This document shows, one piece after another, positions 7,930 through 54,400 of a stretch of 64,000 bases of DNA. Each line of letters begins with the position of its first letter. The stretch's first letter is position 1. This stretch comes from Blasia pusilla (taxonomy: Eukaryota), in NCBI GenBank assembly GCA_050084515.1, contig CM114271.1, forward strand, positions 25,854,001 to 25,918,000, written 5' to 3'. The position numbers and the translations under genes were made by a program. The notes beneath the pieces were generated by a model, which was not told the DNA's origin, ran no database searches, and saw only the letters and a program-made list of their open reading frames with translations.

Positions 7930-8900
7930 AGCTGCACACCTGAACACACAATCGGACGGAGTGCGCACAGGATGGGATGGGATGGGAAGGCAATTGAAAG
8001 CAGCGCAGAAGGCGGAGCGCAGAATTAAACCTCGCCGAGCTAGCCAGCTAGCCGAGACGACTGCTCGAGAGAACCTGAAGAGAAGAGAGCCCAGTGAAAG
8101 GTAAACTACACGACGAAGCAAAATCCTGAGCTGCACACTTGAACACACAATCGGACGGAGTGCGCACAGGATGGGATGGGATGGGAAGGAAATTGCGAAA
8201 GCAGCGCAGAAGGCGGAGCGGAGATTTAAACCTCGAGAGAACCTGAAGAGAAGAGAGCGAGCGCTCTCTCTCTCTCGCTCGCTCGCTTCTTGTTCCCGCA
8301 ACTGCCCCGCGCTTAAGCAGCCCGACTTTCAAGTTTCAACTTAACTGCCGATCAAACACCTAGCTCGCAGCCTCGCACCGAACCCAATGAAGAGAACCTG
8401 AAGAGAAGAGAGTGAGCGCTCTCTCTCTCTCTCTCGCTCGCTTCTTGTTCCCGCAGCTGCCCCGCACCGAACCCAATCAAGTCTGCAACCGAAAGCGCGA
8501 AGCAGAAACCAGAAAGTGCGAAGCAGCAACCAGAAAGCGCGAAGCCTAGCTCGCAGCCTCGCAGCCTCGCAGTGCTCGCACCGAAGTGACCGAACCCAAT
8601 CAAGTCTGCAACCAGAAAGCGCGAAGCAGAAACCAGAAGGTGCGAAGCAGCAACCAGAAAGCGCGAAGCCTAGCTCGCAGCCTCGCAGTGCTCGCACCGA
8701 AGTGACCGAACCCAATCAAGTCTGCAACCAGAAAGCGCGAAGCAGCAACCAGAAAGCGCGAAGCCTAGCTCGCAGTCTCGCAGTGCTTGCACCGAAGTGA
8801 CCGAACCCAATCAAGTCTGCAACCACAAAGCGCGAAGCAAAAACCACAAAGCGCGAAGCAGCGACCAGAAAGCAGCAACCAGAAAGCGCGAAGCCTAGCT
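7930..8900. repeat. Nested tandem repeat array in the hAT 5' region (~200-bp duplication, then ~100-120-bp units built from ~20-bp AACCAGAAAGCGCGAAGCAG subunits)
   Basis: GCTGCACAC..GAACACACAATCGGACGGAGTGCGCACAGGATGGGATGG at ~7931 and ~8130; GAACCCAATCAAGTCTGCAACC at ~8469, 8592, 8708 and 8803. Confidence 0.9.
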
Positions 8901-19900: not shown

Positions 19901-20256
19901 GCGTATCTGCCGTTGTCATCTGACGATGCGGGGGAGCGGATTCAGCGCGGCTGAGGACGACAGGACGGTGAAGGAGAAATAATTTCCCTTCTTCTTTCCG
20001 TCCTCTCTTCATGGGTCATTGTTGAGTCTGCATTCGGCTTTTTTGTAGGTGTAGGTGCACAGCGTGAGGAGGAGGAGGAGGAGGAGGAGGCGGAGAGAGA
20101 GAGAGAGGAATCGGATTTCGACTGCAGACTGGTGCGGAAGTCTGTCTGCTCTCTGAGTGATTGATGAGCGCTGCCGCGGAGATGGTGCGCGAGAGCGGAG
20201 GGGAAGAGTAGTCGACATGGCGGGCTAGAGACGCGGAAATCAGAGGTCGTACAAGT

Positions 20257-23200
20257 ATGGGGAGCTACCATGGTGCGAAGGCGGTGCTACTGGTGGTCAC
20301 GATTTACGGTCTGTCTACGATATGCTGCGTGAGAGGGGCGGATTTTGTGTCTCCGGAAGTGCAGGTGCTACTGTCGATCAAAGAGAGCCTGGTAGACCCG
20401 TCTCGCGTTCTCGCAAGCTGGGACGCAGCTGATAGCATGCCTTGCAATTGGACCGGGGTGCTGTGCAGAGGCCAAAATCGACCTGTGGTTTTTTCTCTCA
20501 TTTTGAAGCACAGTAATCTGTCCGGAACGATTTCTCCTCGCATCGGCGAGCTCACGTACTTGGAAACTCTGCACCTGGGAGGGAACTTCTTGAGAGGGGA
20601 AATTCCTTCGGAGATCGGCAGGCTTTCTGCTCTGACGCTACTGGATTTGGGAAGGAATTTTCTCAGCGGAAGTATTCCTGCGACTATAGGGAATGTCAGC
20701 AGTCTACAGGATGCCAACTTTGAGGAGAACTATCTGACGGGTGCACTTCCCCCGGACATTGGCAACCTCACCAGTTGCAGGTACTTCAGCGTGAGACAGA
20801 CCAAGATCGGGGGCCTCATTCCTTCGGGTTTGAGAGTCATAGAGGAGCTGAACCTGCAGGACACGAAGATCACCGGGCCCATTCCGGGTGATTTTTTCAA
20901 ACAAAACCAGGTGAAGTATCTGTATCTTAACAACCTTCAGTTCTCCGGATCCATGGCATCCGAATTCGGTCAACTTCCGAAGCTTGAAGGACTGTACATG
21001 AGAAACACCGGTCTCTTGGGGGCCATTCCTGCGAACTGGACGAATACCTGGAGTCTCATGTACCTTGATCTGTCGGGCAACAGGCTGAATGGGCAAATTC
21101 CCGAGAGTCTCGGGCGCCTTTCCAACCTCAAAATGCTGGAGCTCTCTCGAAATTCTCTCTCGGGATCTCTTCCCCAAGAGCTGGGGAAATTCTGCCAACT
21201 CGAAGAGCTCGATCTGTCCTTCAATCAACTCAGCGGTCCGGTTCCAGACGGTCTGTGCGCAGGCGGGACGTTGAAGACGTTGAATCTAGCGGACAACGGG
21301 ATTGAGGGGAGTTTGCCTCCCATTCTTGCGAATTGCAGCACCCTGGTCGACGTGAACCTCGGATACAATGCGTTCTCGGGAACCGTATCGTGGGCTCTTG
21401 GTTCCGGAGAAAGCCTGTTGTCCCTGAGGGTTGGTCACAACCTTCTCAACGGAAGCATTCCACCTGAATTCGGCATGTTGAGAAATCTGACTATGCTGGA
21501 CCTTTCTCACAATAACTTCTCGGGTTCCATACCTCCTGAGATCCAAGGTCTTGTCGGTCTACAGATGCTCAACCTGTCCTCCAACCAATTTTCAGGGTCG
21601 TTGCCTCCCAACCTCAGCGAATGCAAGGCTTTGGACACGCTGCTTCTGCAAAGAAATGGTTTCACCGGAGAAATTCCAGTCGCAAGTCTCAGCAGTTTGC
21701 CTCTTCTCGCGGAGCTGAATTTAGCTGGGAATCGCTTGGAAGGGGGTGTGGCGGAAGGGTTGGGAAATCTCTCTCTACTGTCGAGAGCCCTGAACCTCAG
21801 TAGCAACTCGCTGAACGGTAGCATTCCATCCGACCTCGGGAAGCTTGAGATGTTGGAGTCACTAGACCTTTCTTTCAACGAATTTTCGGGTGAAATTCCT
21901 GTGGCGCTCCAAGACCTGCACAAGCTGCAATCTCTCGACCTCTCTTACAATCAACTCACTGGAAACATACCTCCATCCATCCTAACACTGGATCATCTCA
22001 AGACCTTGAACCTCTCCTACAATCGTCTTACCGGCGTTGTACCAGTCGTGACCGTGGCAAGTGGGCATCCGCCATGGCCGGCGGATTCTTTTCTCGGCAA
22101 TGTGGACCTCTGTGTGACCAACTGCTCGCAGGCCTCATCGTCGCCTGCTGATTCCAAGCCCGACGACGACGGTTTGAGCAGCGGTGCTCTGGCTGGAATT
22201 GTCGTGGGAGCCTTGGGAGCCCTGGGGTTCTTACTTTTGGCGACGATAACACTTTGCTTCACCAGAAAGGACTCCAGTGTGATTCCGGTCCAGAAACAAC
22301 GATTCTTGCTTCCAGAGATTTATAAGGGATTAACTTACAACGAAATCATGGCAGCGACGGACAATCTGAGCGACAAAAATCGGATTGGTAGGGGAGGATA
22401 CGGGACTGTCTACAAAGGAACGTTTGCCAACGACACGGTTTGCGCCGTGAAGCAAATTGTTATGGCAGCAGAATCGTCCAGAGCTAGCTTTCAAACTCAT
22501 CTGATGGATGTCGAGATCGCGGGACAGACGGATCACAAAAACATTGTGAAGCTCATGGGCTTCTGCCACAGGGGAGACGAGACGCTAATCGTATACGAGT
22601 TCATGCCAAACGGAAGCTTAGGGGATGCTCTGCATAAGCGAGGTGAGTTCCCAAGAGATCCATCTATCTGCGATGGTGTCACTCGCTGTCGACGAAATCG
22701 CTCGGGAAAGAGTAGAACCTTACGGGTCGATTGTCGACGAACTTCGTTTGTCTTGATGGGATATACTGCGCCGTAGCAATCATCAGAAGCAGTGTTGTGA
22801 GCTCACCAGAAGCTCAATCAATCTGAGGAAACCGTTCTCTAGCTGTTGTAGTAGGCGGTAGAATTCAGAACGTTAGACAGAGGAATGCCTTCCACTGGAA
22901 ACGCAATCCTGCTTGCCGTTCAGTCGATGGGGAACTCAATGTTCGTACATCACAAGTAGACCGCTTTCTAAGTTTCGTGCTTTGCTGTGCTAGATTTCTA
23001 GCCCACATGGGGCCTTCCAACTCTCGCCGCTCCTTCAGCATCCCGTCCACATTTCCTCCCATTCCCCTCTCAACAACACCCCCCCCAAGGCAATGCTTCT
23101 ACAAAAGCACCGGAGAACTCGGGGAACAGGCTTCTTGACTTGCTTCTACAATGTGACTGTAGAACAGCAAGACTGCTTGAAAATAATCAGCTCCTCTCTT

Positions 23201-37872: not shown

Positions 37873-39805
37873 CATTACACTTCAGCTCACAAATTCATAT
37901 ATTGTCCTTTCCCAGCTTGTGATTGCAGAGACTCAAAGCCCACCATGTATTGCAAATCCATCATTCACCAAAGTCTGGATTCAGGTGGAGATGGGTTTCC
38001 TCTCCATCATCTCCCCTTGTGAGAGCAATCTTGTAGCCAACAAATTGTGTGCCCACCCACAGGTTGACCACTCCTAGTCCAAGTTGTGTGCCTATACAAA
38101 CCACCCAGTCAGTTATCTGGCTTCAATGTCACAAAGAGCTCTACAATTAACTTAACAGGTTAGGACAAATGCAGGATGCCACCAAGCACCTAACCGTCGG
38201 AAATTTTGAGGAAGGTGCACCTCAGGGTTTGCCTCGTTGAGTGAACAGCTGAATTGAAACAGCATATGACTTTGAAAGCTAGGGAGAAGAGAAGCCTTTT
38301 CCTCTGATCCATGTGAAATTTAAACAATGTATAGAGGATTCAAAATCAGGATACATATTGGAGTCATAGAGGGTTCCCATCGGCATACAATGCAGTCATG
38401 GAAGCCCCATTGGTGAAAAATTACATTCGGTGGTCATTGGTGTGTCGACCAAACCGAACTAGTGGAAATCTATATCATACATGTGAAGTCCACTTGCCAA
38501 TAGTGAGTGATTTTAAGATTTGAGTGAACATTGTATATGCATGGAATGTGTTTTTATAAGATTGGGCCTTCTCTAGCATCCACACAAAGTTAAACTAATA
38601 AAGTTCAACATCCTCCATGGTTAGAGCCATCAAGAGATATGGCTAAGCCATGGTAATAACATTTACTTAAACAACAGATCTTATTGAATGGTGTTGTAAA
38701 GTTGAAGACATAAAATCGCTACCAAGATTGGAGCTTCAACATTGGTCATAGTTAGAGGATACGTACAGCACAGATTAGAGGGGTCGGAGCCATCAAGAGA
38801 AGTGATAGGGTTGTGGTAAATATCTTTCATTGGACTTGGGATCTTATGAAATGGTGGTGTGAGGTGGAAAACATGGAAGGTATGTATTTATGTCGCTACA
38901 TCCCATGATTGCTCTCACAAGCGGTGATAGAAAGGGCACCCTTGATTTTCCTCTTAGTCCATCAATTCAATGACCGCTGATGGAGCTCTAAAAGTTGTTA
39001 GAATGATCACACGACAACCCATTTTGCTTGCAAATATGGTGAGATGCCTAACATTTTGACGAGATTTTGGTGTAACTAATCGGGTGCCGACCCGCCCCCA
39101 ATAAAACCAAACATTGGTGGGATGAAGCTTCTATTCTTTCCATGATTTTATTTAGTTTACAACTAAAGAAATAGCCAGTTCCTGTGTCCAACACGGGTGA
39201 AAGATTAGCCCAAGAAGACAAAAGCTCGGATGTCTCAAAGACTCTTACATGCTTCGGTTTATAGGGAAAGAGCGACACATGCCAATTAATTACAAGCCCA
39301 AAGGACATGTGTCACCAAGAGGATAACGCTATAAGGGCACTCTCACATAATAATATAGATTATAATTCACGAATTTTCATTGTTTGGTGTAATGTGAGTT
39401 GAATAACAAATACCTTGCAAACCATCCACCTCAATTAGTTTTGAAGATCTCACGATGAGTCCAATCTTATTCCTCGACTTTTCCACACTACATTTATTTT
39501 AAAAAATAAATATGAGTTTCTTACTTGAAAAATAAGGATTACATACCACCATGTAGGAAAGAAATATATCTTTCATTTTAAAATTACAAAATCAATTCAG
39601 AAAATATCCTTAAAAGATAAGATTTTTTTTTCTTACGAAATTGAAAATATTTTCTATAAAAAGAAACTAATTAGTTATCGTTCGAGATCCAATTATACGC
39701 CTTGAAATACACACGTGTCAAAGGGACATTTTGAATTATCTTTTTGAATCATATTCAAAACCTTATTCGTCCAAAATGGTCTAATTTGAAACTCTATATC
39801 TATAT

Positions 39806-40790
39806 CTATATATATAATAATTGGCAACCCCATATGCATAATACGAAAAGATAGTGAGACAATAAGAAAAAATAGGCAACATGTTTGAATTTTTTTGTTT
39901 GAGGCATATTAGATGGGTAGAAATAGACAAAGGAATGACTATGCATTTGAGTGGAAAATATATTAATAAATTAATAATTTACTTAATATTATAATGGGTG
40001 ATTAAAAATATTAATAAAATGAAATAATTCTGACAAATAACCAAAATTTTAGATTTTTTTCCTCAATTCATATCTAATGGAAAGAGAAAATAAATTTTAA
40101 TGGAGAAGGAGTAGATTTTGTTTAAATTTTATGGAAGGGTAAAATTACTTAAGAGATTGGGATATCATTTAAATTTCAATGGAGGATTGTAATTACTAAG
40201 AAGAGTGAAATGTTATTACTCTTCCTATAAAATACAAATTATATTTAAAATTTGAAATTAAGAACGTGATTCTTTTTTAAAATAATGGCAGTAATTCACA
40301 TGTGATATTTTGGGAAAGGAAAATGAATTTGAATGGAAAATAAAAAGGATTTCGTTAATTAAAATTAGCTAAGATTTTGGTTAGTAAATATCATTTTGGT
40401 GGGAAGAGTGGAAGGGGAAGAATAGTTATTATGCGAGCTTTTACGGAGGAATGAAATTATTTAAGGGAGATGGATATTATTTAAAGGTGAAATTTTCTTA
40501 CTCTTTCAAGATTTTAAAAAATGGAAATTATACTTAAATTTTAAAATTAAATATAATTTGAAATTTTAAACATAATTTTTAAAAATTATTATTGACACTT
40601 GTTTTCAAGGCCCTTCTATTGACACGTGGCAATTGGACAGCAAGAAAATGTTTCACATGTTATGGGCAGAAAAAAAAATTTTGAGTTTGTGTGTAGCATC
40701 ATTAATCCCTTCCCTTCATAGGTTATACACTAACAAAAACTCTTCAAACACTTCTTTTTTTTTTCGTGCATCGCATAGGGCACCTTCCTT
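39806..40790 (+). mobile_element. AT-rich Helitron-like non-autonomous element
   Basis: TCTATATATATAAT 5'-like start at ~39806; degenerate 3' hairpin CGTGCATCGCATAGGG at ~40765; homology to 13850-13980. Confidence 0.45.
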
Positions 40791-43700
40791 ATCATTATTG
40801 GAGAGTTTCTTCTTGATTGCAAATACCTCTCTCCTTAACATGTGGCAACCGGGTAACAATAAAATATATTTTAGTCTACTGCAACAAGAAATGTGTGCAC
40901 CACCATTAATCCCTACATTGCATCAAAGTATCAATTAGACTCTATTTAAAACTAAAAAGAAAATTATTATTTACGGCCTCTACAAGTAGGGCTTAAATGA
41001 AATGCGTCCTAGGGATACCGCCACGTCCTCCTTGCAAGCACTCCATGCAGACAAACTTTATACGTGTCGGGCATGGTTACGCCCATGGTAGTAGGTTTGT
41101 TGTGGAGGATCTTCTTTTTGTTCGTGTGTGTTTGAGCCTATTTGTGTGCGTTCGAGCTCCTCCGTGAGCTTGGCTCGTGCGGGCGTCCATCTTCGTGTGA
41201 GTTTTGTGCCTCATCCAAGAGAATGTTGTAACCCTATACACATCTTAGACATATCCATCGTCCCATGGGAACTACATCAAGAGGGGGGGTCATACATGAC
41301 ATATGCCACCCTCGAGAACAACCATCACATACCAACATGGTGGGTGCACCCCTCGCAGATCCACACAACATACACCTCAAGCCTAGAGGTACCACTGTCA
41401 AGCTCAGATCCACTATTCCGTCCACGTTCGGAAGATGACATGGCGCACAATTGCGCACATGATCCTTCCAAACCATACCATCCCGTCCCTCCAACATGAG
41501 GACTCTGATCCGTAATACCTCGAGCACACATAGGATCGTTCGCCTTGCATTGACATCTAGCGTCGTGGGCGCCTGCTGTAAATACACGTAATCTCCATGA
41601 TGAAATCTCCTAATCCCTGGACGATAACTTCCTCCAAGAATGGTCGCGTACCTCAATATATCTCTATGCTGAGCGATAGCTAAGTTCTCAAAGGCCATAG
41701 GCATAACTCTACAAAAAATCTCCGCCCTCTGAGAACACGCTTATACCCACACATCTGGATCATCAAGATCTAACACCTCCGCCATATCACGTTGAATAGC
41801 TGTAGGTAAATGTGGCTCTCTCCCAAAGAGCAAAAAGTACGGTGAAAAGACGCCAAGGATTCCTGGCGACTAAAGCAATAAGCCATAGCCAACCATGGCA
41901 AATGTAGGTCCCACTCCCTCAATTGTCCCTGCTGCAAGCCATACTTGCGCAATCCTCTCTTCACGGTTTGTACTACTCTCTCCGCCAACCCATCCGCCTC
42001 AGGATGATCTCTAGATGTGGTACGGTGATCTATCAGCGCTTGATCACACAAGGCTTGAAACTCTCCCCTGAACTCAGTATCCTAGTCAGTCAACACCTCC
42101 CCTGGTGCATCAAAGTGACTAAGCACACGATCTAGAAACGGATAAGCTATTCCCTTGCTCGCCTTGTCCGGTAGTGCCACCAACTCTATCCACTTGGAGA
42201 AATGCTCCACCATGACCAACACGTACCTGTGATGACGCCCTGTCAATGCCAAAGGTCCCGCGAAGTCTAAAATCCACCAATAACTTAAACCCATAATCGG
42301 CAAAGGATGTAACTGCGGAGTGGGAGCTCGCACTCTGTCACATACCATACATCTGGCCACAAATTGTTGTATCTAAGTATGCATGGCGCGCCACCAATAG
42401 TGAACCTGGAGTAAGCTGTAAGTAGGCTTTACTCCAAAATGCCCCAACTCCTCATGGGCATGTCACACTACATGTGCTCGTTGGAAAGGATGAGGTACCA
42501 CTCGTATCCTACCATCTTCCCATACGTGCAAAATATGAGTCTCCTCCCACCTAAACCTCTTGGCTCTCTATAGGATCCGATCCCGCTTCCTAGCACTCAC
42601 TATGCTTGCTATGACGCTAGTGCAAGAAAGAACCTCCACGTCGTCATGGATATCACGATCACTTATCGCCTCCTCATTGACCTCCGGATCCAAAGACACA
42701 TCATCTAACCCCACCATTGGAGTCATCACCTGCAGTTGACCTAACATAGTCAACCAACAAAGATAGGCAGATGCATGCCAATCGGGCACCATCTTCTCAT
42801 CACTCTCTCCGTGCCATCGAGCTCTTGTGTCGTCTCTCTGACTCGGACATGGGTTACGACTCAACCCATCCGCATCCTTGTTCAGCCAACCCGGCCTTCG
42901 AACTACCTCAAAATCATACTCCTGTAGTAATAGAGCCTACCTGGCAAGCTTTCCCGTAAGCTTGTCGGACTCCATGAACCACCTCAACGGCTGATGATTA
43001 GTGATAAGTGTGAAAGGGTTGTCGAATAAATAACACCTTAAGTGTGCCATGGCCCACATTGTCGCCAAGCACTCTCCCTTGTAGGAGCTATACTTTGCCT
43101 CTGCAATGTTTGATTGGCTCGCGTAAGCCACAACGAACTTCCTCTTCTCGCCATCCCTCTAAGTAAGCATTACTCCTAGACCCAACATGCTCCATTCCGT
43201 ATGTAATTGGAATGGGCGATCCCTAACCGGTCTCTGAAAAATGGGTGAGGAGGTCAACCTGTCCTTAAGCTCTTGGAATGATCGCTCCTGATCATCTCCC
43301 CACAACCAAACCTGATCAAGTGTCATCAACAAGGTCAAAGACTTCGCGATTGCACTAAGACCCTTAGCATACCGTCCATAGAAGTTTGCCAGTCCAAGAA
43401 ATTCTCGGACTCGACTCACATCTGTAGGGCGTGGAATCTGCGCAATAGCCTCCATCTTTATCTGCTGAATACCTAACCCACTCGGGTATATGGTGTGTCC
43501 CAAGTACTCAATCTGCTCCTGAAAGAATCTGCACTTGCTTGGATGTAACTTCAGTCCATGTAACTGCAATCACCGAAACACCTCCTCCAGGTGTTGCTCA
43601 TGCTCCTCAACCGTGGAACTGAAGATAAGAATATCATCTATGTAACATCGTTCAAAATCCAAGCCAGCCAGAATCCTATCGATCACTCTCTGAAACTCCG

Positions 43701-44499
43701 CAGGCGCGTTCTTCAACCCATATGGTAAGAACCGCCACTGATACAAGCAATCCCTCCCGAATCGATCTATCCCCCTGAATGTTGTCTTCTCCCTGTCCTC
43801 CAACCTGATAGGAAGCTGATGATAGCTAGCACGGAGATCTAAAGTACGAACGATCTTTGCATGCCCTACCGCATCAAATATCTCCTCAGGAGTAGGCATG
43901 GTATACCAATCTAACCTCGTTTGTCGGTTGATAGGACGGTAATCTCCACACATCCGCCCTTCCGTCCAATTGCCATACATATCCTTCTTCGCCGGCATGA
44001 TTATGGCAGATGCATACTCCCCATGTGATAACTCCACAAGTCTTTGCCTCCAACAAGTCCTGACTCCTGCTCTGAATCAAGGCTCGCTCCATATTAGAAT
44101 ACTTGTAGGGTCGACGAAAGATTGGTGTATCACTAGCTAACTCAATCCGTATCCCGGGACCCTTCAGCGTACCCAAGTCTCTCATAGTGAAGGCAAGACA
44201 ACTAACGTACCCTCTCAAAAACCTATGAACTCGTCGTCACTCTCCTCCTATCAACTTGAGACCTATCACTCGGAAAGAACGCAACCTCCGGCTTTGGTTG
44301 CTATGTAGCAACCCTAGCCACCTCTGAAACAACCACTCCACTCTGACATCCTACACCATGCTCCACATCCAAAAAAATGTGGTGCTCTAGCCGCCTTTGC
44401 ACTCTCGGCTCGAACGACGTCCCAGGAAGTCCATGGGTTCCTATCTCTCCTCATCTCGCCCCCAGCCAATGCCTCTACAGACCTAGTAGGCAGGCTAGG

Positions 44500-45241
44500 G
44501 CTCACCAACGTATGTAAGGTTACCCTCAACTCCCCCATCCTATTGGCCATCGCCAACGGTGATCTATCATCCCGTGTCATCACCTCGGATCGACGCCCTA
44601 AGCCCAAAATAGCATCCATTGTGAGATGTGATGCTCTCTGGACTCCATCGTATGCTCAACTCAGTACCTCTGATGGTATCAGTTTCGTCCATCATAGCTG
44701 TGGATGATGGGCTCGTGATCCAACTCTCGCTGCATCTAACAACACAACAGGTCCCAACCATGACCTCACCTAATGCACACTCGTCATCACACGTGCACAA
44801 GTGTCTCCCAAATAACGGCACGTTCTCCAAAATATACGCCGGAGAACATGTCTGACTTTCTTGCAAGTATCGTACTACTTGCAGCATCTCCCAAAACATC
44901 CTTGACCTCGGATCCTCCAATCCAAATCCTCGGCCAGTTGATGAATGACCCTAACATGGCCATCCTAGAATCACCAAATGAATGGTGCCAACTCTATCCA
45001 GATCCTACGCCCCCACCAAAGAGATGTTAGCGGGTAGTGTATGTTGATATCCCCCTATTGCAGATACCGGTAACAACTTAGGATACCTCTGGACCAATCT
45101 CGCCACCTGATGTATTGATACTTGCTTTGCGGTCTCATCTCTCTCCACATAAAGGTACAAATGCACCCGTATGCCTGCCTGCAATACCGCAGCCAATCCG
45201 GTGCTAATCCCTCTGAAGAGATCTAACACCCTAACACCCTC
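44500..45241 (-). pseudogene. DNMT3-like C5 cytosine DNA methyltransferase domain embedded in gypsy pol
   Basis: Motif I VLDLFRGISTG (45229 down), motif II YVERD, motif IV GWPC*G (44954-44965), motif VI YILENV (44819-44827), motif VIII-like LDAARVGSRAHHPQL*WT. Motifs IX-X not seen. Confidence 0.88.
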
Positions 45242-47151
45242 CTATGGACACTACCATACAACGAATGTGGTATCTAGTGGGATCAACATCTCCACTCCAA
45301 GAGCCTTATCGCCACCTAAAACTCTCGCTGCTCTGGGATAAAGGCATGACTCCATGCCTGCCTCACGAGGTTGTCGGCACTCCCCTGTAGCTTACGAGTC
45401 GTACCCCAAAATAGTGAAGAGGTCTCGCCAACATGGGAAGAGACACCCGCCATGGCCTGTCTCTCCGTGGGACTATCCGCTACTCGGACATTCTCCGCAT
45501 GTGCATTCCCCTCCAACAACTCTCCTGTCCAGCTAACACTACCTGTGAAAGCTGCCAACGTGGTCACATACTCGTCTCGTGCTCGACCACCTCATCCCGC
45601 GAACTGCACCAGTAACTTACTCATCCGCCTGTCACATGACCACCACCTTGGCCGATAAGCAACAGTTTCCTCCTAGAAGTCAAGGATGAATCCAAGGGGA
45701 TATAACACTATACTCCCCACCAACACATCGTATGACTCAGTTGGTGTTGTAATCGCATGTGTGCGCACCATACCACTATTCATCGCATGCTCTGGCTGGA
45801 CTCTGACAACTATCTCCTCTCAAGTCATATATTGCGTGGATGACACGCCCCCCAATTGAGGTCTATATCTGGAATGGAAAAGGCTCAATGTCGGCCTTCT
45901 GTAACCCCAAAGCTAAACAGGACGCCTTCCTAACATCAAGGGTTGTGCTCCCGAATCAAGTAGGATGCGTTGCAGGTGGTATACTATCCCCGTCGGACTA
46001 ACCAAGCAAAATACTACAGCTCGATTATCCAATAACACTACGCCATGTGTCACCACTACTCGCTCTATGGCCGGTCGAGCTGGCATATCTACCAACTTTG
46101 TCGCCGCCGCATACCATGACTCTGTGGGGGACGTCCTGAGCACCTGCTCCAAGGGCAAGTCCACCACCTCCTCAACTACCATTGAATAAGAGGCAGTCAC
46201 CTCTCCACGCTCATACAACGGGGTGGCCAACCAGAACACCTCAGCTGGTCCAACTCCCAACGTCGCAACGAAAATAGTGGAGTCTTGCTCACTCTGGTGG
46301 CCACCTCCAACACTATGGTTGACATTGACTCCACTCGAGCGGACATAGGAGTTGTCACTCCAACTCCTCATGACGTCGATGCACCTCCCTGACCTGTAGG
46401 CACCGCTGGTTGTCAAGATACCATCAATGGTATGTGTAGTGCCTCTGACAATGTGAATGATTGTGGAACCCTGGCTTGCTGCCCCTTAGTCCTCTCCGGT
46501 GGGTTAATCGCAACTCCACCTCTTGATGGCTCAGTGCCTCTTGCAGCACCCCGAGTTACCACTGAAGTCGCCTTAACCTGAGCTGCACTACACATAAACC
46601 CCGTACTAGCAAGATCCTCACTCATGTCAGGGTAGGAGGTAGGAGTTGAAGTCACACTAGCTGCTTGCGGCTTCGTGCCTTCCCTGAGCTGCATCATCAT
46701 CATGGCAGCAATCCTTTGCTCCAACTGATCGATGCGTGAGAGAAGTGTCGGCTGTGGTGCTCCTGCTCCATCTCCTCTGGCTGGTGGTGGTCTTCTACCA
46801 CCACGTCCAAGAACAACTCCCCGACCTCCTCCAGGACGACCGCCCCCAGACCCTCGGCCTACCTCTGGACGTACCTCTCTACGAAGGTCAAAACATCTAT
46901 CCCTAGTGTGACAATATCTGCGGCAATAGTCACACTGGTACCGTGGTGGGGCCATCCTCTGTGGCTCTTGAGCAATCGTAGACGCTTGTGGTCCTCTCCC
47001 TTGTTATGTGCAGTCTCTTTGCCTATGGGCCCCTCCACACGTCCAACAAGATAACATCGGTTCCTGTTGGGAAACATATGTAGGTACATGTCGTTGCCTC
47101 ATAGGCTCACGGTACCCGCTCTACTATCTGGGCACACTGGCCCGCTCCGGT

Positions 47152-48431
47152 TGTCGTATAGTAAAATCATCTATTATGTAAACTCCTTTATCATTAAATG
47201 TTAGAGAGAGTTTTATTAATATTAAATAAATTAGCCTAGGAAAATGAAATTATCATGTTTAAACCTCCTTAGGGTGACTTATTTGCGCGGGCCCAACTTT
47301 AGGAAAAGAGATAATAAATAAAAGATGGGATTAGAAAAGTAAAGTAATGGGGTTGGTGTTTTAATAAAACAAAAACAAAAGTAGTCTTAGTTAGTGGCTA
47401 GGGTTGGTGGGGTAGTTTAGAAGATATGAAATGAGTAAAAGAGGATATTTTTGAAGAGATAAGAGATAATCTACTTGTATCAAAATATGATTGGCTAAGC
47501 CTTGAGAGGGAGCCATGTGGCACAAGATAAAATTAACCCTATTTCGTACTCTTGTGGATCCCTTGTGAATATATAAAGAGGAGGGACCTTCAAGGGTTCA
47601 TCACCTTCTATTTCACATCTTGAGTCTTTTGTGTCATTCTTGAGTGTATGGCTTTGGGATTGCTTGCTCTTCCAATGAGAGTGGATTATCCCTCTTGGGA
47701 GAGTAACTTGATCTTGGTCTATTCTTCGAGAGGTTTTTAGAGTGTAGTATGAGTGGAGATGAGAGACTTGTCACTTTAGATGAGTTTAGTCATACAAAAA
47801 ATAGATTATGGTTTGGCTTGTTATTTTTCCAATGAGAGTGGATTACCCCTCTTGGGAGAGCAACTCCGCAAAATCCCATTATAGAGGAGAGTAAAGGATA
47901 TTTGTCAAGTATGGATAGGGGTGGTGCACGAATTGTGCCCGATTTTTCCTTCCTAAATCCATACCATGTCAAGATTCTCTTTGTAGACAGGCACTTGTTC
48001 ACTCATTATCTAGTTTATCATCTGGGGATGCATTCATGAACCAAGTCATGAAATCTCCAACTCCGATGATTCTTCTTATAGTCACGTACGGAAGGACATG
48101 GGATTGCACTTTGTATGTCCTTATATAGCAATCCATGGATGTCAATAGGCCTACTTGAGTAGGGTTTAACATTAGTTGTGTTATTTTCCTTGTGTACAAA
48201 CGTAAAGTAGTTTACATGGACTTCATAGTTAGGAATTTTAGGGTTGCATGTTATGAAGAAGTGATGGCCTCGGCACTACCTTTCGTGATTCCTATCTTGA
48301 GAGAATGGAGGGTTTACATAATAATTTTGTACTGAAAAAGGAGAAATTCTTATAGAGTTTGACTTGCATCAACCACGTCTATTGCAGTTAGAAGGTCCGC
48401 CCTTACTTGAAGAAAGGCTCTCGATACGACA
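47152..48431. mobile_element. Short TG...CA element (~135 bp once the nested solo LTR is removed) inserted in gypsy gag
   Basis: Perfect 8-bp terminal inverted repeat TGTCGTAT (47152-47159) / ATACGACA (48424-48431). Flanks CGGT/CCGT. Gag-like sequence resumes on both sides. Confidence 0.55.
47177..48318. mobile_element. Solo LTR (~1.14 kb)
   Basis: Termini TGTAAAC...GTTTACA, flanked by TATTA/TAATA (TSD with one mismatch). Internal TATATAAA at ~47570; non-coding and AT-rich. Confidence 0.75.
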
Positions 48432-51277
48432 CCGTGGTACTGGTGCTCGTTGTGACACCTGTGGGGTCACTATCGCTCGTGGACTTGCCGACTCTTGAGA
48501 AAATCCAGTGATCACTATCTACTCCTCAATCATGTTGAGCTTAATATGCTCACACAACTCGAAGATCACCTTCAATGTGGGCTTCGCTGTGTGCATCGGT
48601 ACCGTATCTCGGACTCTCCTCCGTAGTTCTTGGTCCAAAACCCCAAACCAAAACTAGACTGACTGCGCCTCAGTCACTCCATAAGTAGCAATGATCAGCC
48701 TCCTCATGCGTGTGAAGGCCTCTCTCAGACTCTCACCCGATCGTCGCTAAAAATCTTGTAGACTCTTTAGCTTGTCGGTGCATACGCCTTGGTAGCTCTT
48801 CCCCAACTGTCGGAAGAACTCCACTTTGGGACTGACGCTGGGTGGCCCTCTACCACCAGAGGTCTCTGTCACATCGCTTGTCTCACTGCCCTCCTCTCCA
48901 TCTAGTCTCGGGGCTGAAGGTGTTGGTCTCTCTCCTCTCACGATCCCATCATATTCCTCGCGACCACTAGTGGATACATACCCTGGAGCCCAATACATCC
49001 TCTAGGCATCGATCTCTACTGAATACAACAATCAGAACTCTTGTAGTCATCCATTGGAGGACCCTCCAAGTGTTGGAACAACCCTTTCCATGCCATGAAA
49101 GGGTTGAACCGTGTCGAGGTCCGTATCTCCTTGAATTCTCACCACATGTCGAACTCCTCGATGAAATCATCTAAGTCGATGGTGCCCACTGCATCCGAGA
49201 AACAAGGCATGCCCCAATGGCCCATGTCGTCCATCTCCTGCCAAGTGACACTGCCTCGTTTGCGATCTCGTCACCAGACCCTGTGTCTAGTGATGACGAT
49301 GTAGCCACGGATGGATGTCGAGGTAGCTCCTCACTCGTAACCCCTCGGTATCTCACTCCACTCCGTGTCACACCACTGCTACTGCTTGCACTACCCCGTT
49401 CTTCCAAACCCTGGAAGAACGCCGTGATAACAACCCTGTCTCACCCGCTCAAACACTCAGACTCACCAAGAGTCTCCCACACTCCTCAGTAGCTCACTGA
49501 CGCTAATGGTAATCCCGTGACGACACATCCGGCCTCACGCACACTCAACACTCAGGCTTACCATAAGCCTCCCAACTAACTCACCTAAACCACAGACACT
49601 CTTGGGTCATACACGTGACCTCTACTCGGCAACCACCGTATATCCACAGACATGCTACACATGCATGGAGACTATACTCGTCACCATCGCTATATCCATC
49701 TAGCCCCAGCAACTACCCGATACCCAACACTCTCAATCACATAAGATAAGTGCAGGAAAAGGGACTCAAATGGGTAACTTGATCATGCCCTCCAACCTAC
49801 GACCCATCAACACCCACTCCTCCATGTGATATGAAAACCTCCGTAAACGACACCCTCCTCAACCAACACGTCAAACCTCCCGTCAGCATTGGCATGTATG
49901 TCTCCATCAGAATCCTCGCCGAACTAATCCCCGGCCAAACTCTCAACCATGTCAGCCCATTTATCATGTCATCCGCGCCTCTACCACGTCGCCCTACGAC
50001 ATCCATCCTAGCCCCTACTACATCCGCTTCTACTAAGTATGCTTTGTACTACATCCAACTGTCGACTACGTATCTTGTCTACCACGTTGCTTGGGCCTCC
50101 AACCACGTCACCCGCACCTCCAACCACGTTGATCATGTCGACCACATTCGTCCCTCCCAACCACGTCTTCTGACCAACCACATCTGGAAGGCACCGACCA
50201 CGGTGCTCTAAACCACGCAAGTGCGTTTACTATGTATGGGAAAGAAAAAAGGACCTAGCCCTTGGCCCACGTGCCTATGGGCCTTATGGCCCCTTTGGGG
50301 GGGGGGGCCTAAATGCGTGGCCCTATGAGGCCGCCCTAAATGCGCGAGGGGGAGGGGGCACGCCCCTCCCCCTACGCCGGGGAAGGGGTCCGCACCCCTA
50401 TGACAACATAAATGATGGGAAGGGGGGGAGTCGCGCCCTAACCCTAGACTTGACCTAGCCACCCTCACAAAAGCTATGGAGACTTGCTCAAAAAAAATGC
50501 TTCTCTTCCTCTCTCCGGACACTTGCCACTGCTCACTTGCGACCGTCATTGTCCCTCATCATGCGACACACGAGCGTTTTACTCTACTGCTGCCTCAAGT
50601 CAGTTTGCACTAGCAAAATTTGAGAAAAATGGACAACACTTCCGCCCACAGTCTTTCAAACATGCGTCTCTAGGGACTCTCGACCAAGGCAACTCGCTTG
50701 CCCTGCGTTGGGGTAGACGGTCTGGTAAGTCTAGGGAAACGAATACTAACGATGCGCCCTCCGTACCTACAAATAACGAATTTCCACCAACCCCTTGACA
50801 TCTTTCTCATGTGAAAATAAAGAGTAGTAAAAATGACACACCAGGCCTAAAACTCCACTCCTCAATCTACATCGGCATATCGAGCCTCATCCACCCTAAG
50901 CTATCAAGGAATCCAGGCGCTAGCACCTTAGTCCTATCTCACACACGAACAAGAGAGGTGCTCCAATGGCCCAACACGAGAAAGATGGCTTTGGAAAGCC
51001 ATCTTCCTCCCTCGTATAGGGCTGGGAAGAGCCAAAAGGCTCTTCCCCTAAAAATAGCTATCCTCATGGTAACGTGCGCTCACAGGTTACCATGGGCGGG
51101 TGAGTTGCTCAACAAGTCACCCGCCTGTGAAAGACCCCAACAAGAACGTTGTTAGAAATGACGTTCCTGACACAACAGCCCTATCCTCAACCTCATCCGA
51201 CATCACGGGACAAAGTTACACTCAAGACATACCATTGGCTCCTATGCCCTATCCACGATACATCTCGACCTATCGGT

Positions 51278-51475
<198 letters not shown>

Positions 51476-51499
51476 AGCACTGGGAACGCTTTTCTCTAC

Positions 51500-54400
51500 A
51501 AACATCAACTTCTATGGCAACTCCGAAGAGAAGGTAAACCAAGAGAGTGGCCGCTTTATACACCGCTACGCAAAGAATGAGCAAAATGCAATGAATCAAA
51601 ATATAATGGGTTCCACAAAGGATTCTTCTGTGTATCCTCCCTCTTGGATTCTCCCCTCATTCAATTCAACTACAATAGTTTAGGGCTTGAACTCCAGTCA
51701 CATATATCGGATACCATCAAATAAATATTTGCTATCAATCTGTTAATAAATAAACTCTACACTGACTACAAGGACCTCATAGAATTACCCCAACCATCTG
51801 GCTTGGTCATCCTTCCCTCAACAACAAGCTCAACAGTAGTAGAGAAAATACCCAAAAAATCTCAAGAAAAAGACCAGGCTACACATAGCTTGAGCTATGA
51901 CCCATATCATCTTGAGTTGAACATTTTGCAAGATGTAGCTTACTCACTTCTTGTTCAAAAACGTACTTCGACTGATATTTTTTACAACAGTAGCCTTTAT
52001 CAGGGTCAAAATTCCTCTATTAGAGAAAGTCTTCTCACAAATATTTCTAGTACCTCTTTAGACTCTAGACTCACAATAGAAATAATTTTGTTTCCTTTTT
52101 TATAGTCATACCTACGAGGGTATTTCTCAGGAAGCTCCTCATTTCTTGATTATATGTGGAATCGCTCAAAGCAGTTATTTAGTATATTTTCTCTTTATAA
52201 GCCTTACTCTCTCCTTATGCATCAATTGAGGCAATCAATAGCCTTGTGTTCAAATAGCACAACTTTCATTCTTACTTGAGAACCTAACAAGTTAAGAAGA
52301 AAAAAACCATGTCTTCTAGAAGAAGATTTATATTCCCATTCATCTAAATATTCAATCAATCCACAACTTCCTGGAAGTCCTGCATGGCACCGCCGTCACC
52401 TTAAGGACTCAAAAGCCATGGTCCACAAATGGGGCATGCCTCATTTTTTCTTGACTTTCACATCTGATGAAGTTTCACCAACCAGATGGCATGGATTTGA
52501 TGATATTGAAGTCCTCTTTAAAAATTTCAACACTACATTTTCTTGGCATGATGCTCCAGCTCAATGTGCCCAGTTGTTCCATTCAAGATTACATTCTTTC
52601 ATGCAGCAACTTATCCTAGGTGGCCTCCATGTTCTTGGTAAAGTTTTAAACTATTTATTGAGATATGAACTACAAGGCGAGGTAGTCTACACTATCACAT
52701 GGTACTCTGGTTAGACACATCCACATTAGATAGAGTTACGTACGTCAGAAATGTGCACCTACATTCCTTCCACTCTAGGTACATCTAATTTGTCTACATC
52801 ATCACCAAGTGCTACTTCCATCCATGACTTATTGTTGCAATATGTACTCACAAAACAATTACATAAGTGTAAGCCAGGTGTATGCGTTATTAGGAAGAAG
52901 AATCAAAAACCTTATTGTAGGCTAGGATTCCCTGTGGCGCCTAACCTTAATATAGCTAGTACCTTATATTGATCCCAAAACCATGAGGTGGACTTATTTT
53001 TGTCCTTCTCTAGAACATCGTAACGTGATTCCATATGACCCACTTTTGTTACTCTTCTTGGGTGCTCACATGAACTTACAACGTGTTACTACTACTGATT
53101 GGTCGTTCTATTTGCTAAAGTATGCATTAAAATCTGAGCCAACAGGGTCACTAGATATTGATACACATACTGGTAAGTGTCTTGGACTTGGTGGAATTGA
53201 CAAGATGAAGCTTAAATTAATTTCCGGTGTTGTACTTAATAAGTCTGTGTCATCTACAGAAGCTGCACTAACATCTATGCAGATACCCATTACATACACC
53301 TCTCAGGCAGTGCATTATGTTGACTCTAACCCTCCATGTCGCCGCAGTTCCCTATATAGGAATGTTTCAGTTCCTTGCATCCACCCAATTGTTATGTACT
53401 GCAACATGCCCACATCTATGGAAGATATTACTTTCATCTAGTACTGGTCTTCCTATGACTTGCACAAGTCCTGCCCTAAAAGCACCAATGTTGTTGCTGG
53501 CCTAGACAATTTAGGTAATGTTGTTTGCAAGACATATAGAGTTGTTCGTTTTACCGAGTTTCATCCTCTCCACCAGTGGAGATCTAGAGGATTCTTTTAT
53601 TCAGCATTGTTAAATCACATCCACTTCAGGTCTGAAACTGAAATTTTATCTTCTGACAGCTGGACTTATTTACATGAATGTGTACATAGGAAAATAGTTC
53701 TCAACATTGAAGATATATATGCTTTAGTTAAGACTTACACCATAAAAAAAATCTCTGGGGTCAGGTACATAAAGTTGAGATCTTTGCAAAAGTAATTGAT
53801 ATCTTACAACCTGAACTTGTTGGAGACATTTTTGAAATGTTTACCCAATCCACTTCAGAACCCCTTTCTCCATCACAACCACAACGTATCCATCCAAATG
53901 AACCAAATTTGGAAACATTGAATGATGTGCAATTGAGGCTTTTCTCCCAACTTAAAGACTTACGCTCTGGTCTAGTACTCTTAAAGGGTTCTCTCGGATG
54001 TGAGTGAAAACTTTCTTCATCAAATTCATATATAGTTATTGGAAGGCTTCTAGAATGTGTCCACTTCTTACAGCTACAACAGGTATTGCCGCTATTCGTC
54101 TACATTGAGAAGCAACCACTGTTCATACCAATTCGAGGCGACTTGCCTAACATGCATGCTACTTCTGACAATTATATTAGGCTGAGATCATCAAAAGTAG
54201 TTGTAATTCATGAATGTTCTATGCTTACCACCAAACTTCTTCAGGTAGTAGCAATGCGGCTTAACGAAGCCTCTCCTTCAAAATACACAACTCCAATTGC
54301 AAATAAGCTAGTTCTATTGGTAGGAGAATGGTGTTAGATTTGTCCAACATGTAACCACCGCTCTTCTCCTTTCTGTGCTAGCTGCCACATTACTTCATCT

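What the first reader, a model, noticed from the sequence alone, without database searches (positions are those of the whole stretch)
44500..45241. Ty3/gypsy retrotransposon carrying its own DNMT3-like cytosine methyltransferase between protease and RT
Seen: in pol orientation, between the protease (LLDSGAQ ~45950) and RT (~44200 down), the frames read VRVLDLFRGISTGLAAVLQAG..YLYVERD...IHLVILGWPC*GHS...GLEDPRSRMF...YILENVP /shift/ ...LLDAARVGSRAHHPQL*WT. These are C5-MTase motifs I, II, IV (catalytic PC), VI (ENV) and VIII. Motif VIII resembles the DNMT3 DA..VS.AHR.RYFW form. Known: DNMT-carrying retrotransposons are reported from dinoflagellates and a charophyte alga, but are not a standard feature of land-plant LTR elements. 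Inference: a land-plant gypsy lineage that could methylate its own cDNA or target DNA. This copy is dead, with stops and no visible motifs IX-X.
Basis: partly seen in the sequence, partly recalled or inferred. Interest (0 to 1): 0.85.

Follow-up and report, generated by a model that had tools for sequence, protein, structure and literature searches.

The report
Dead gypsy retrotransposon with DNMT3-like methyltransferase
This is a broken copy of a plant jumping gene whose family carries its own DNA-methylating enzyme, a kind known from one green alga and here shown to be abundant in a land plant of the moss and liverwort group.

Summary
On the minus strand, about 49867 to 41036, lies a decayed Ty3/gypsy element: gag(CCHC)-PR-C5 MTase-RT-RNase H-INT-PHD. 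The MTase remnant (45241 to ~44500) passes Pfam DNA_methylase (27.4 bits, cut-off 22). It is up to 71% identical to liverwort and Sphagnum proteins with the same PR-MTase-RT order.

Intact relatives keep all motifs I-X. Their closest solved relatives are DNMT3A/B/C by sequence profile (2.7e-25) and by fold.

The MTase is not a one-off insert. In whole-genome reads of the window's species label its depth (~1000-1240) equals that of the adjacent PR and gag, against ~10 in the flanks.

This copy is dead. It has two TAG stops, one replacing the Q of PCQ. It also has a frameshift, two further stops, a deletion of motifs IX-X, a 1284-bp insert in gag, and no terminal repeats.

Related contigs show A-coding-B-A-B repeats, the layout published for KnitGypsy-Dnmt3 of Klebsormidium (PMC5890265). 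A sister architecture, RT-RH-MTase-INT-PHD, occurs in chlorophytes.

Verdict: a new member of a known kind, extending its host range to land plants. Enzymatic activity is untested.

The parts
41036..49867 (-). Whole remnant of the retrotransposon, including a nested insert. No terminal repeats were found.
   Evidence: Genomic read depth is ~740-2130 inside against ~9-22 in the flanking bins. The stretch is collinear by tblastn with P0003 and P0014. Self-comparison finds no LTRs.
48483..49201 (-). gag, N-terminal part
   Evidence: tblastn to P0003 residues 14-252
47148..48431 (.). 1284-bp nested insertion in gag, with a short terminal inverted repeat
   Evidence: The joint 47147->48432 is supported by 147+174 genomic reads, so other copies lack the insert. 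Its ends were inspected.
46272..47087 (-). gag, C-terminal part, with two CCHC-like knuckles
   Evidence: tblastn to P0003 residues 290-530. The strings CWTCGGAHRQRDC and CDYCRRYCHTRDRC are in the translation.
45697..46083 (-). Aspartic protease (LLDSGAQ)
   Evidence: tblastn with the PR seed, 51% identity; ORF 45913-46485
44807..45241 (-). MTase remnant, frame 1: motifs I (G to R), II, IV (PC then TAG), VI (ENV). Two TAG stops.
   Evidence: Pfam PF00145 at 27.4 bits. 71% identity to the P0003 domain over 145 residues. Coordinates.
44500..44811 (-). MTase remnant, frame 2: motif VIII (LLDAARVGSRAHHPQL*W) and part of the target-recognition region. Two stops. Ends at the deletion breakpoint.
   Evidence: loose ends of 732 reads at 44500
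44362..44499 (-). Linker that follows the MTase in relatives. Motifs IX-X, which should precede it, are deleted.
   Evidence: tblastn to P0003 residues 1198-1261; my reading of the translation against P0003
43477..44268 (-). Reverse transcriptase
   Evidence: Pfam RVT_1 at 96.6 bits; tblastn
42919..43305 (-). RNase H
   Evidence: Pfam RT_RNaseH at 82.3 bits
42004..42504 (-). Integrase (H2C2 zinc finger and rve core)
   Evidence: Pfam Integrase_H2C2 at 49.6 bits and rve at 34.6 bits
41240..41374 (-). PHD finger at the C-terminus of pol
   Evidence: Pfam PHD at 37.3 and 41.7 bits

Best explanation
Shown. The stretch is the decayed MTase domain of a dead copy of a Ty3/gypsy-type retrotransposon. 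In this family the Pol polyprotein carries a DNMT3-like C5 cytosine methyltransferase between protease and reverse transcriptase, and a PHD finger after the integrase. The domain belongs to the family and is not an accident of this copy. It sits in the same place in liverwort, Sphagnum and metagenomic relatives. It is as repeated in the host genome as the neighbouring gag and PR, about 100 times the single-copy depth. Its catalytic residues are kept across the family. Synonymous change exceeds non-synonymous change between copies.

Inferred, not shown. In live copies the polyprotein would be cut by PR. The MTase, free or still joined to RT, would use S-adenosylmethionine to methylate cytosines de novo, as DNMT3 does. 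Its substrate would be the element's own new cDNA or DNA at the integration site. The PHD finger would read a histone tail and guide integration or methylation. The gain to the element is unknown; de Mendoza et al. (2018) propose self-methylation of retrotranscribed DNA.

This copy can do none of it. Its MTase has four stops and a frameshift and has lost motifs IX-X. Its gag is split by a 1284-bp insert. Its terminal repeats are gone.
For: Domains and order in the window.

Same order elsewhere. Pfam gives P0014 MTase 460-529 then RT 833-919, and P0021 PR 741-830 then MTase 1039-1112. Of the 373 of 377 stored proteins with an MTase hit, 62 show the PR-MT-RT type. These include single ORFs P0222 (2358 aa, PR-MT-RT-RH-INT-PHD), P0253, P0262 and P0118. 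Of 22 retroelement-like metagenome loci, 18 show this type.

Named hosts. Of 28 hits, 18 are Marchantia polymorpha, 1 Calypogeia fissa, 2 Sphagnum and 7 unnamed. One search adds M. paleacea and Riccia sorocarpa. In the MTase tree the window piece is sister to a M. polymorpha protein (SH-aLRT 99, 72% identity over 134 columns).

DNMT3 likeness: (pLDDT 94.5). The only non-retroelement hits are three animal-type DNMT3 proteins (PWWP-bearing; two named from fish, one unnamed), at E 6e-21 to 3e-16.

Copy number in the host (WGS reads, both mate orientations summed):
- MTase bins: 1008 and 1238
- PR/gag bins: 950-1205
- RT-INT bins: 1466-2132
- flanking bins: 8.5-21.5

Constraint. Across 182 MTase domains the catalytic Cys is kept in 179, the ENV Glu in 180, a motif IX Gly in 181 and a motif X Asp in 177. 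dN/dS is 0.21-0.54 in 28 of 28 pairs of one subfamily. It is below 1 in 14 of 15 pairs of the Marchantia-like subfamily. Between the window and that subfamily dN is 0.24-0.29 with dS saturated.

Transcripts. Sense-strand RNA reads at >=80% identity reach depth 26-108 over RT-INT and 2-19 over the MTase bins, mostly from other copies.
Against: Activity. No activity has been shown for any Gypsy-DNMT3 domain. The Klebsormidium one gave no methylation in yeast, which the authors call inconclusive because human DNMT3B also failed.

Depth. RT-INT depth is 1.2-2.2 times that of the MTase, PR and gag bins. Part of the RT family may therefore lack this 5' half, or RT may simply recruit more diverged reads.

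Intactness. All 18 type-A metagenome loci are decayed; their longest ORF is 493 aa. I saw no intact copy in a named land plant. The Marchantia gene models are partial.

Motif IV. The residue before the catalytic Cys is E, not P, in 54 of 182 domains.

References missing. No plant DNMT3, DRM, CMT or MET1 and no Klebsormidium sequence was available, so placement inside DNMT3 rests on solved animal and plant structures and three animal-type outgroups.

Host identity. The window's host is known to me only as a coded label.
Confidence: 0.85

Rival explanations
1. One-off capture: this single copy picked up a piece of a host DNMT3 gene, or the piece is a nested insertion, so the MTase says nothing about the family.
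For: The copy is heavily rearranged and does hold one nested insert, at 47148-48431. RT-INT depth is higher than MTase depth.
Against: MTase depth equals that of the adjacent PR and gag, about 100 times the flanks. The same PR-MT-RT order is seen in 62 stored proteins and 18 loci from several hosts. No read joints skip the MTase, whereas 321 reads skip the true insert.
Confidence: 0.02
2. The domain is kept but is not a DNA methyltransferase in vivo. It could serve as a DNA- or chromatin-binding or oligomerising module, or act on RNA. Its conservation would then reflect another role.
For: The KnitGypsy-Dnmt3 domain produced no methylation in yeast. Motif IV is EC rather than PC in 54 of 182 domains. 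In one search motif I F is kept in only 129 of 182 domains (C in 40, a gap in 10) and the first G in 133 of 182 (A in 30, a gap in 10).
Against: The residues needed for catalysis are almost invariant: Cys 179 of 182, ENV Glu 180 of 182, motif VIII Arg 178 of 182. The model has the full DNMT3 catalytic fold at pLDDT 94.5. Retrotransposon DNMT3 domains of Symbiodinium do methylate CG in yeast.
Confidence: 0.12
3. The MTase-bearing sequences are domesticated host genes derived from a retroelement, not parts of mobile elements.
For: Marchantia annotations list them as genes. Some RNA is present. RNA loose ends at 41421 and 41505 with 0.98-0.99 agreement suggest one specific transcribed locus.
Against: There are about 100 copy-equivalents, most under 90% identical to this one (72093 of 102212 laid reads). 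Stops and frameshifts are pervasive in copies. Related loci have a full gag-pol context with terminal A/B repeats.
Confidence: 0.03

Closest known systems
KnitGypsy-Dnmt3 of the charophyte Klebsormidium nitens (de Mendoza et al. 2018, PMC5890265; abstract, sections 9 and 10, and passages read)
   Same: Both have a DNMT3-type, non-rearranged MTase inside the Pol ORF of an element with Gypsy domain composition. Both show purifying selection on the domain. The paper's legends (Figs 1e and 4c) give a DIRS-like A-coding-B-A-B repeat layout, and I find that layout in related loci L007 and L015. Both hosts are streptophytes.
   Different: The host here is a land plant, with bryophyte relatives. The copy number is about 100 against 'fewer copies' in K. 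nitens. I could not see Fig. 4c or the supplements, so the position of the DNMT within the K. nitens Pol is unknown to me. No K. nitens sequence was compared. The window copy is dead and lacks its termini.
SymbioDIRS-Dnmt3 and SymbioLINE-Dnmt of Symbiodinium (same paper)
   Same: These are also retrotransposon-encoded C5 MTases. The DIRS ones are DNMT3-like and methylate CG de novo in yeast.
   Different: They have a different backbone: tyrosine recombinase DIRS, or LINE. The host is a dinoflagellate and the acquisition is stated to be independent.
Animal DNMT3A/3B/3C catalytic domains (e.g. PDB 2qrv, 6brr, 6u8p, 8tci)
   Same: They are the best sequence-profile and fold matches. Motifs I, IV, VI, VIII, IX and X come in the same order, and motif VIII has the form D-A-x-x-V/G-S-x-A-H-R-x-R-x-x-W.
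   Different: Identity is only 19-22%. There is no PWWP or ADD domain. The domain sits inside a polyprotein, motif IV reads PCQ/ECQ rather than PCN, and motif X reads LGxxMDxN.
Plant DRM2 / NtDRM (PDB 7l4c, 4onj)
   Same: They are DNMT3-related plant de novo methyltransferases.
   Different: The match is weaker (7e-15 to 2e-11). In DRM the motifs are circularly rearranged. Here they are in the canonical order.
Chlorophyte and metagenomic elements with RT-RH-MTase-INT-PHD (Haematococcus lacustris and Monoraphidium neglectum are the named hosts)
   Same: They share the same MTase family (profile E down to 1e-155), the same integrase and the same C-terminal PHD finger.
   Different: The MTase lies between RNase H and integrase. 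Their MTases form one side of a branch (SH-aLRT 93.9).

Membership tests
C5 cytosine DNA methyltransferase (Pfam PF00145) | Score above the curated cut-off | tested here: met
   27.4 bits against a cut-off of 22 on window 44567-45241(-) read with X at stops. The score falls to 21.2 bits when embedded in a 2499-residue frame.
C5 cytosine DNA methyltransferase (Pfam PF00145) | Full set of catalytic motifs: I (FxGxG), IV (PC), VI (ENV), VIII, IX, X | tested here: not met
   In the window copy, motif I reads F-R-G, PC is followed by TAG, ENV and motif VIII are present, and IX-X are deleted. Intact relatives have all six. The window holds a pseudogene of a member.
DNMT3 clade | Closest to DNMT3 among solved MTases, by sequence and by fold | tested here: met
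   By profile: DNMT3A 2.7e-25, DNMT3B 2.4e-22, DRM 7e-15, HhaI 1e-7, DNMT2 3.6e-4, and no DNMT1 at E<=1e-3. In Foldseek all 32 rows shown are DNMT3A/B/C.
DNMT3 clade | Canonical (not DRM-type rearranged) motif order | tested here: met
   The order I-IV-VI-VIII-IX-X is seen in alignment A1 and in the alignment to 2qrv_A.
DNMT3 clade | Falls inside DNMT3 in a tree with plant DNMT3, DRM, CMT, MET1 and DNMT1/5 | not tested
   Only three animal-type DNMT3 sequences were available as outgroup.
Ty3/gypsy (Metaviridae-type) retrotransposon | Pol order PR-RT-RH-INT, with a gag bearing CCHC | tested here: met
Ty3/gypsy (Metaviridae-type) retrotransposon | Flanking long terminal repeats | tested here: not met
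   No direct repeats flank the window copy. Depth and homology end at about 41036 and 49867. Relatives have split A/B repeats instead of simple LTRs.
KnitGypsy-Dnmt3 type (PMC5890265) | DNMT3-type domain within one Pol ORF of a Gypsy-composition element | tested here: met
   Met in relatives: single ORFs P0222 (2358 aa), P0253, P0262 and P0118. In the window the ORF is broken, but the order is the same.
KnitGypsy-Dnmt3 type (PMC5890265) | DIRS-like repeat layout A-coding-B-A-B | tested here: inconclusive
   Present in related loci. L007: A 159-439 and 8271-8550; B 8092-8269 and 8551-8728. L015: A 5642-5936 and 14476-14789; B 14300-14474 and 14788-14962. L013 shows B-A-B at its 3' end. The window copy has lost its termini, so it cannot be tested there.
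KnitGypsy-Dnmt3 type (PMC5890265) | Clusters with K. nitens copies in MTase and RT trees; same position of the DNMT in Pol | not testable with these tools
   No K. nitens sequence was returned. Fig. 4c is not held and the supplements are closed.

The most novel reading that the evidence does not exclude
An old Viridiplantae-wide clade of PHD-bearing Ty3/gypsy elements captured a DNMT3-like methyltransferase once and later moved it within pol. In bryophytes and relatives it sits PR-MT-RT; in chlorophytes RT-RH-MT-INT. The clade survived into land plants, where it reaches about 100 copies in a bryophyte genome, is still transcribed, and may include live copies. Their enzyme would add de novo cytosine methylation outside the host's own DNMT3, DRM and CMT machinery. 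That would make it an unrecognised, transposon-encoded methyltransferase activity in a land plant.
Probability: 0.3. Interest if true: 0.7.

Novelty: new member of a known kind. Interest (0 to 1): 0.5.

Why it matters
Retrotransposons that carry the enzyme normally used to silence them are a rare and puzzling class. The only streptophyte case in print that I could find is one charophyte alga with few copies.

These results show the same kind of element in land plants, in liverworts and Sphagnum mosses. It reaches about 100 copy-equivalents in the host of this window and shows sense transcripts. Bryophyte model systems such as Marchantia therefore become a place to ask what a transposon gains from a DNMT3. 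They also allow asking whether transposon-encoded enzymes contribute to plant methylomes.

The two alternative positions of the domain in pol, and the shared PHD finger, give a handle on how such modules are acquired and moved. The window copy itself is dead and has no function.

Tried and rejected
Own genome. The genome search 'own' answered that no genome is held, so no whole-genome census of copies was possible.

Terminal repeats in the window. None were found, with the repeat finder or self-blastn.

Order of events. In the quick tree rooted on DNMT3, type A looked like a grade around type B. However, a tree with type A held together is 6.5 log-likelihood units better (p-AU 0.59). No order of events can be claimed.

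Klebsormidium. No K. nitens protein appeared among the named hits. These searches rest on shared words and length bands, so this is no evidence of absence.

RNA holders. No RNA holder was listed by the look-up of sequencing runs. The RNA evidence comes only from laying X17 and X18.

Literature. Seven searches, plus passages of PMC11982613, PMC12344493, PMC5784723, PMC6453930 and bioRxiv 10.64898/2026.05.21.726589, found no report of DNMT-bearing retrotransposons in bryophytes or other land plants. Subscription papers, for example the Marchantia genome paper, and all supplements were not searchable.

Rejected readings. A bacterial-type MTase is rejected: HhaI scores only 1e-7 against DNMT3A at 2.7e-25. 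A one-off capture is rejected.

Metagenome scan. Loci L026-L080 match only the N-terminal half at about 30% identity. I read them as unrelated prokaryotic or phage MTases and did not use them. L023-L025 (39-43% identity, partial matches) were not examined.

Full report
**1. What is there**

- Frame 1 from 45241 reads EGVRVLDLFRGISTGLAAVLQAG...YLYVERD...GA*DLDRVGTIHLVILGWPC*GHS...GLEDPRSRMFWEML...AYILENVPLFG.
- After a frameshift near 44811/44807, a second frame reads LLDAARVGSRAHHPQL*WT...LS*AY...TLVSPSLPTRS.

Read through with X at the stops, residues 86-142 of the 224-residue frame-1 stretch match Pfam DNA_methylase (PF00145). The match is E 2.8e-6 and 27.4 bits, against a curated cut-off of 22.

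A three-frame Pfam scan of 40500-48000(-) finds these domains downstream in the element's sense:
- RVT_1, 96.6 bits
- RT_RNaseH, 82.3 bits
- Integrase_H2C2, 49.6 bits
- rve, 34.6 bits
- a PHD finger, 37.3 bits

tblastn with Marchantia proteins P0003 (gag-PR-MTase) and P0014 (PR-MTase-RT-RH) shows one collinear element from 49201 down to about 41240. The layout is gag(CCHC)-PR-MTase-RT-RH-INT-PHD. This is a Ty3/gypsy order with two extra modules.

**2. Damage in this copy**

- Motif I reads DLFRGIS where relatives have DLFGGIS.
- A TAG lies at 45007-45005.
- A TAG lies at 44953-44951, exactly where relatives have the Q of GWPCQ.
- The frame shifts between 44811 and 44807.
- Stops lie at 44694-44692 and 44658-44656.
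- At about 44500 a stretch of roughly 85 residues is missing. In relatives it holds motifs IX (EPNADERERAMGF) and X (LGQAMDLN). I placed this by reading the frame-2 translation against P0003, with the tblastn.

Whole-genome reads of the same species label confirm the deletion. 732 reads run on from 44500 into sequence that is not in the window. Translated, that sequence reads like the residues that follow TLVS in intact homologues.

gag is split by a 1284-bp insert at 47148-48431. 147+174 reads join 47147 to 48432 directly, so other copies lack the insert.

No terminal repeats were found. High read depth and homology stop at about 41036 and 49867.

**3. The MTase belongs to the family**

*Relatives.* A search with the 224-residue read-through, restricted to longer proteins, returned 28 hits at E<=1e-3. 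Of these, 18 are Marchantia polymorpha, 1 Calypogeia fissa, 2 Sphagnum and 7 unnamed. The best is E 1.4e-57 at 71% identity. Pfam places the MTase after PR and before RT in them. A full HMMER pass over 1.84 billion representatives gave 1194 hits at E<=1e-3 and 289 at E<=1e-10. Profile searches added Marchantia paleacea, Riccia sorocarpa, further Calypogeia and Sphagnum proteins, and the chlorophytes Haematococcus lacustris and Monoraphidium neglectum.

*Architectures.* I classified the 373 of 377 stored proteins that have an MTase hit with domain seeds.
- 62 have the window's order, PR-MT-RT... (type A). These include single ORFs P0222 (2358 aa, PR-MT-RT-RH-INT-PHD), P0253, P0262 and P0118.
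- 110 have RT-RH-MT-INT(-PHD) (type B).
- 201 hold the MTase alone.

*Copy number in the host.* I laid about 1 in 100 of a WGS run (X14) on 39500-51000 at >=80% identity. Depths below sum both mate orientations.

| Region | Depth |
|---|---|
| MTase bins | 1008 and 1238 |
| PR and gag bins | 950-1205 |
| RT-RH-INT bins | 1466-2132 |
| Flanking bins | 8.5-21.5 |

The MTase is therefore as repeated as its 5' neighbours, about 100 times single-copy depth. No joint skips it. The higher RT-INT depth means either that some relatives lack this 5' half or that RT recruits more diverged reads. I cannot tell which. Most laid reads (72093 of 102212) are under 90% identical, so this copy is an old, diverged member.

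**4. What kind of MTase**

An alignment of 23 domains (A1) shows motifs I, IV, VI, VIII, IX and X in the canonical order.

Searched as a profile against all PDB sequences, A1 gives:
- DNMT3A, 2.7e-25
- DNMT3C, 6e-24
- DNMT3B, 2.4e-22
- tobacco DRM, 7e-15
- DRM2, 2e-11
- M.HhaI, 1e-7
- DNMT2, 3.6e-4
- no DNMT1 at E<=1e-3

The AlphaFold2 model of the P0003 domain has mean pLDDT 94.5 and pTM 0.92. All 32 Foldseek rows shown are DNMT3A/B/C. The first is 6brr_A, E 3.5e-19, TM 0.70 on the query and 0.81 on the target.

Across 182 near-full domains:
- the catalytic Cys is kept in 179
- the ENV Glu in 180
- a motif VIII Arg in 178
- a motif IX Gly in 181
- a motif X Asp in 177
- the residue before the Cys is E rather than P in 54

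**5. Selection**

I computed Nei-Gojobori dN/dS on codon-aligned MTase regions of metagenome copies, skipping stop codons.
- One subfamily: 0.21-0.54 in 28 of 28 pairs.
- The Marchantia-like subfamily: 0.32-1.03, below 1 in 14 of 15 pairs.
- Window piece against that subfamily: dN 0.24-0.29. dS was too saturated to compute in 5 of 6 pairs; the sixth gave 0.11.

The copies themselves carry stops, so these values mix constraint on active lineages with neutral decay. Constraint is the sign that remains.

**6. Link to the known family**

De Mendoza et al. 2018 (PMC5890265; abstract, sections 9 and 10 and passages read) describe KnitGypsy-Dnmt3 in Klebsormidium nitens. It is a non-rearranged Dnmt3 in the Pol ORF of a Gypsy-composition element. 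Its Ka/Ks is below 0.2. Its repeat structure is 'the same as that of a DIRS retrotransposon', which the paper draws as A-coding-B-A-B.

I find that layout in related metagenome loci.
- L007: A at 159-439 and 8271-8550; B at 8092-8269 and 8551-8728.
- L015: A at 5642-5936 and 14476-14789; B at 14300-14474 and 14788-14962.
- L013 shows B-A-B at its 3' end.
- L002 has an A copy on each side and is then cut by the contig end.

This is good evidence that the bryophyte-type elements are the same kind of element. The window copy has lost its ends, however. I had no K. nitens sequence, and I could not see Fig. 4c or the supplements. Membership is therefore likely but not proven.

**7. Two architectures**

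In an MTase tree of 72 rows (quick IQ-TREE, rooted on three animal-type DNMT3 sequences):
- the window piece is sister to a M. polymorpha protein (SH-aLRT 99)
- the 39 type-B rows lie on one side of a branch (93.9)

Monophyly of type A is not rejected. The constrained tree is even 6.5 log-likelihood units better (p-AU 0.59). The two layouts thus track two MTase clades. This fits one capture followed by one move within pol, but neither the direction nor a second capture from a close donor can be decided. Both types share the C-terminal PHD finger.

**8. Host**

The window also holds an LRRNT_2/LRR/kinase exon at 20212-22776. Its nearest Atlas clusters are Streptophyta. The sequencing runs carry a coded organism label, which I did not try to resolve. 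Single-copy depth of about 10 from 1966 million letters suggests a genome of roughly 200 Mb (my arithmetic). Together with the liverwort-nearest relatives, a bryophyte host is likely.

**9. Expression**

Two RNA runs of the same species label give reads whose first mate lies on the + strand. In most stranded libraries that means RNA of the minus strand, which is sense for the element. Depth is 26-108 over RT-INT and 2-19 over the MTase bins. In the two runs, 2514 of 3185 and 2903 of 3603 laid reads are under 90% identical. Family members are therefore transcribed. This copy need not be.

**10. How it most likely works**

*Shown:* the architecture, the DNMT3 fold, the conserved catalytic residues, the constraint, the copy number and the transcripts.

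*Inferred:* in live copies the polyprotein is processed by PR. The DNMT3-like domain methylates cytosines de novo using AdoMet, either on the element's own cDNA or at or near the integration site. The PHD finger reads a histone mark.

The published test of the Klebsormidium domain in yeast showed no methylation and was called inconclusive, while the Symbiodinium DIRS domains methylated CG. Activity of the Gypsy-DNMT3 type is therefore still open.

**11. Novelty**

Seven literature searches and passages of five further papers found no report of such elements in bryophytes or other land plants. Recent papers speak only of 'streptophytes (Gypsy-DNMT3)' and cite the 2018 study. Subscription papers and supplements were out of reach.

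I rate it a new member of a known kind. The window copy itself is a fossil.

Noticed in passing
window 47148-48431: A 1284-bp insert inside gag with a short terminal inverted repeat (about 8 bases). It is itself repeated in the genome (depth ~800-1130). Its part 47152-47346 is covered by RNA reads of the other strand, with sharp loose ends at both sides (agreement 0.98-1.0). This looks like a MITE-like DNA transposon, or similarity to an expressed exon.
   Followed up: partly
L007 159-439 / 8092-8728; L015 5642-5936 / 14300-14962; L013 8035-8694: Related MTase-bearing elements carry split direct repeats in the order A-coding-B-A-B. This is the DIRS-like layout, not plain LTRs.
   Followed up: partly
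proteins P0198, P0267, P0270 (Haematococcus lacustris), P0321 (Monoraphidium neglectum); loci L016, L020: A second architecture, RT-RH-MTase-INT-PHD, is seen in 110 of 373 stored proteins. Intact ORFs of 2027 and 2034 aa occur in L016 and L020. I found no description of chlorophyte elements with this layout in the papers searched.
   Followed up: partly
alignment of 182 MTase domains: Motif IV reads EC instead of the canonical PC before the catalytic cysteine in 54 of 182 domains.
   Followed up: no
protein P0058 (also P0049): Some relatives add a PTM/DIR17-like Tudor domain after the PHD finger (32.8 bits in P0058). That would be a second possible chromatin reader at the end of pol.
   Followed up: no
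protein P0283: A 455-aa protein, 49% identical to the P0003 MTase domain, is named as coming from a Candidatus Obscuribacterales MAG. It is probably a eukaryotic contig binned into a bacterial genome.
   Followed up: no
window 41421 and 41505: RNA reads show loose ends with 0.98-0.99 agreement at these two places in the PHD region. This suggests one particular transcribed relative whose sequence departs there, by splice, junction or divergence.
   Followed up: no
window 20212-22776 (+); 5008-7314 (-); 51215-51520: An LRR receptor-like kinase exon (LRRNT_2, LRRs, kinase). A transposase-like ORF pair with zf-C17orf113 and, below its cut-off, DUF4371. A long (CT)n microsatellite.
   Followed up: partly
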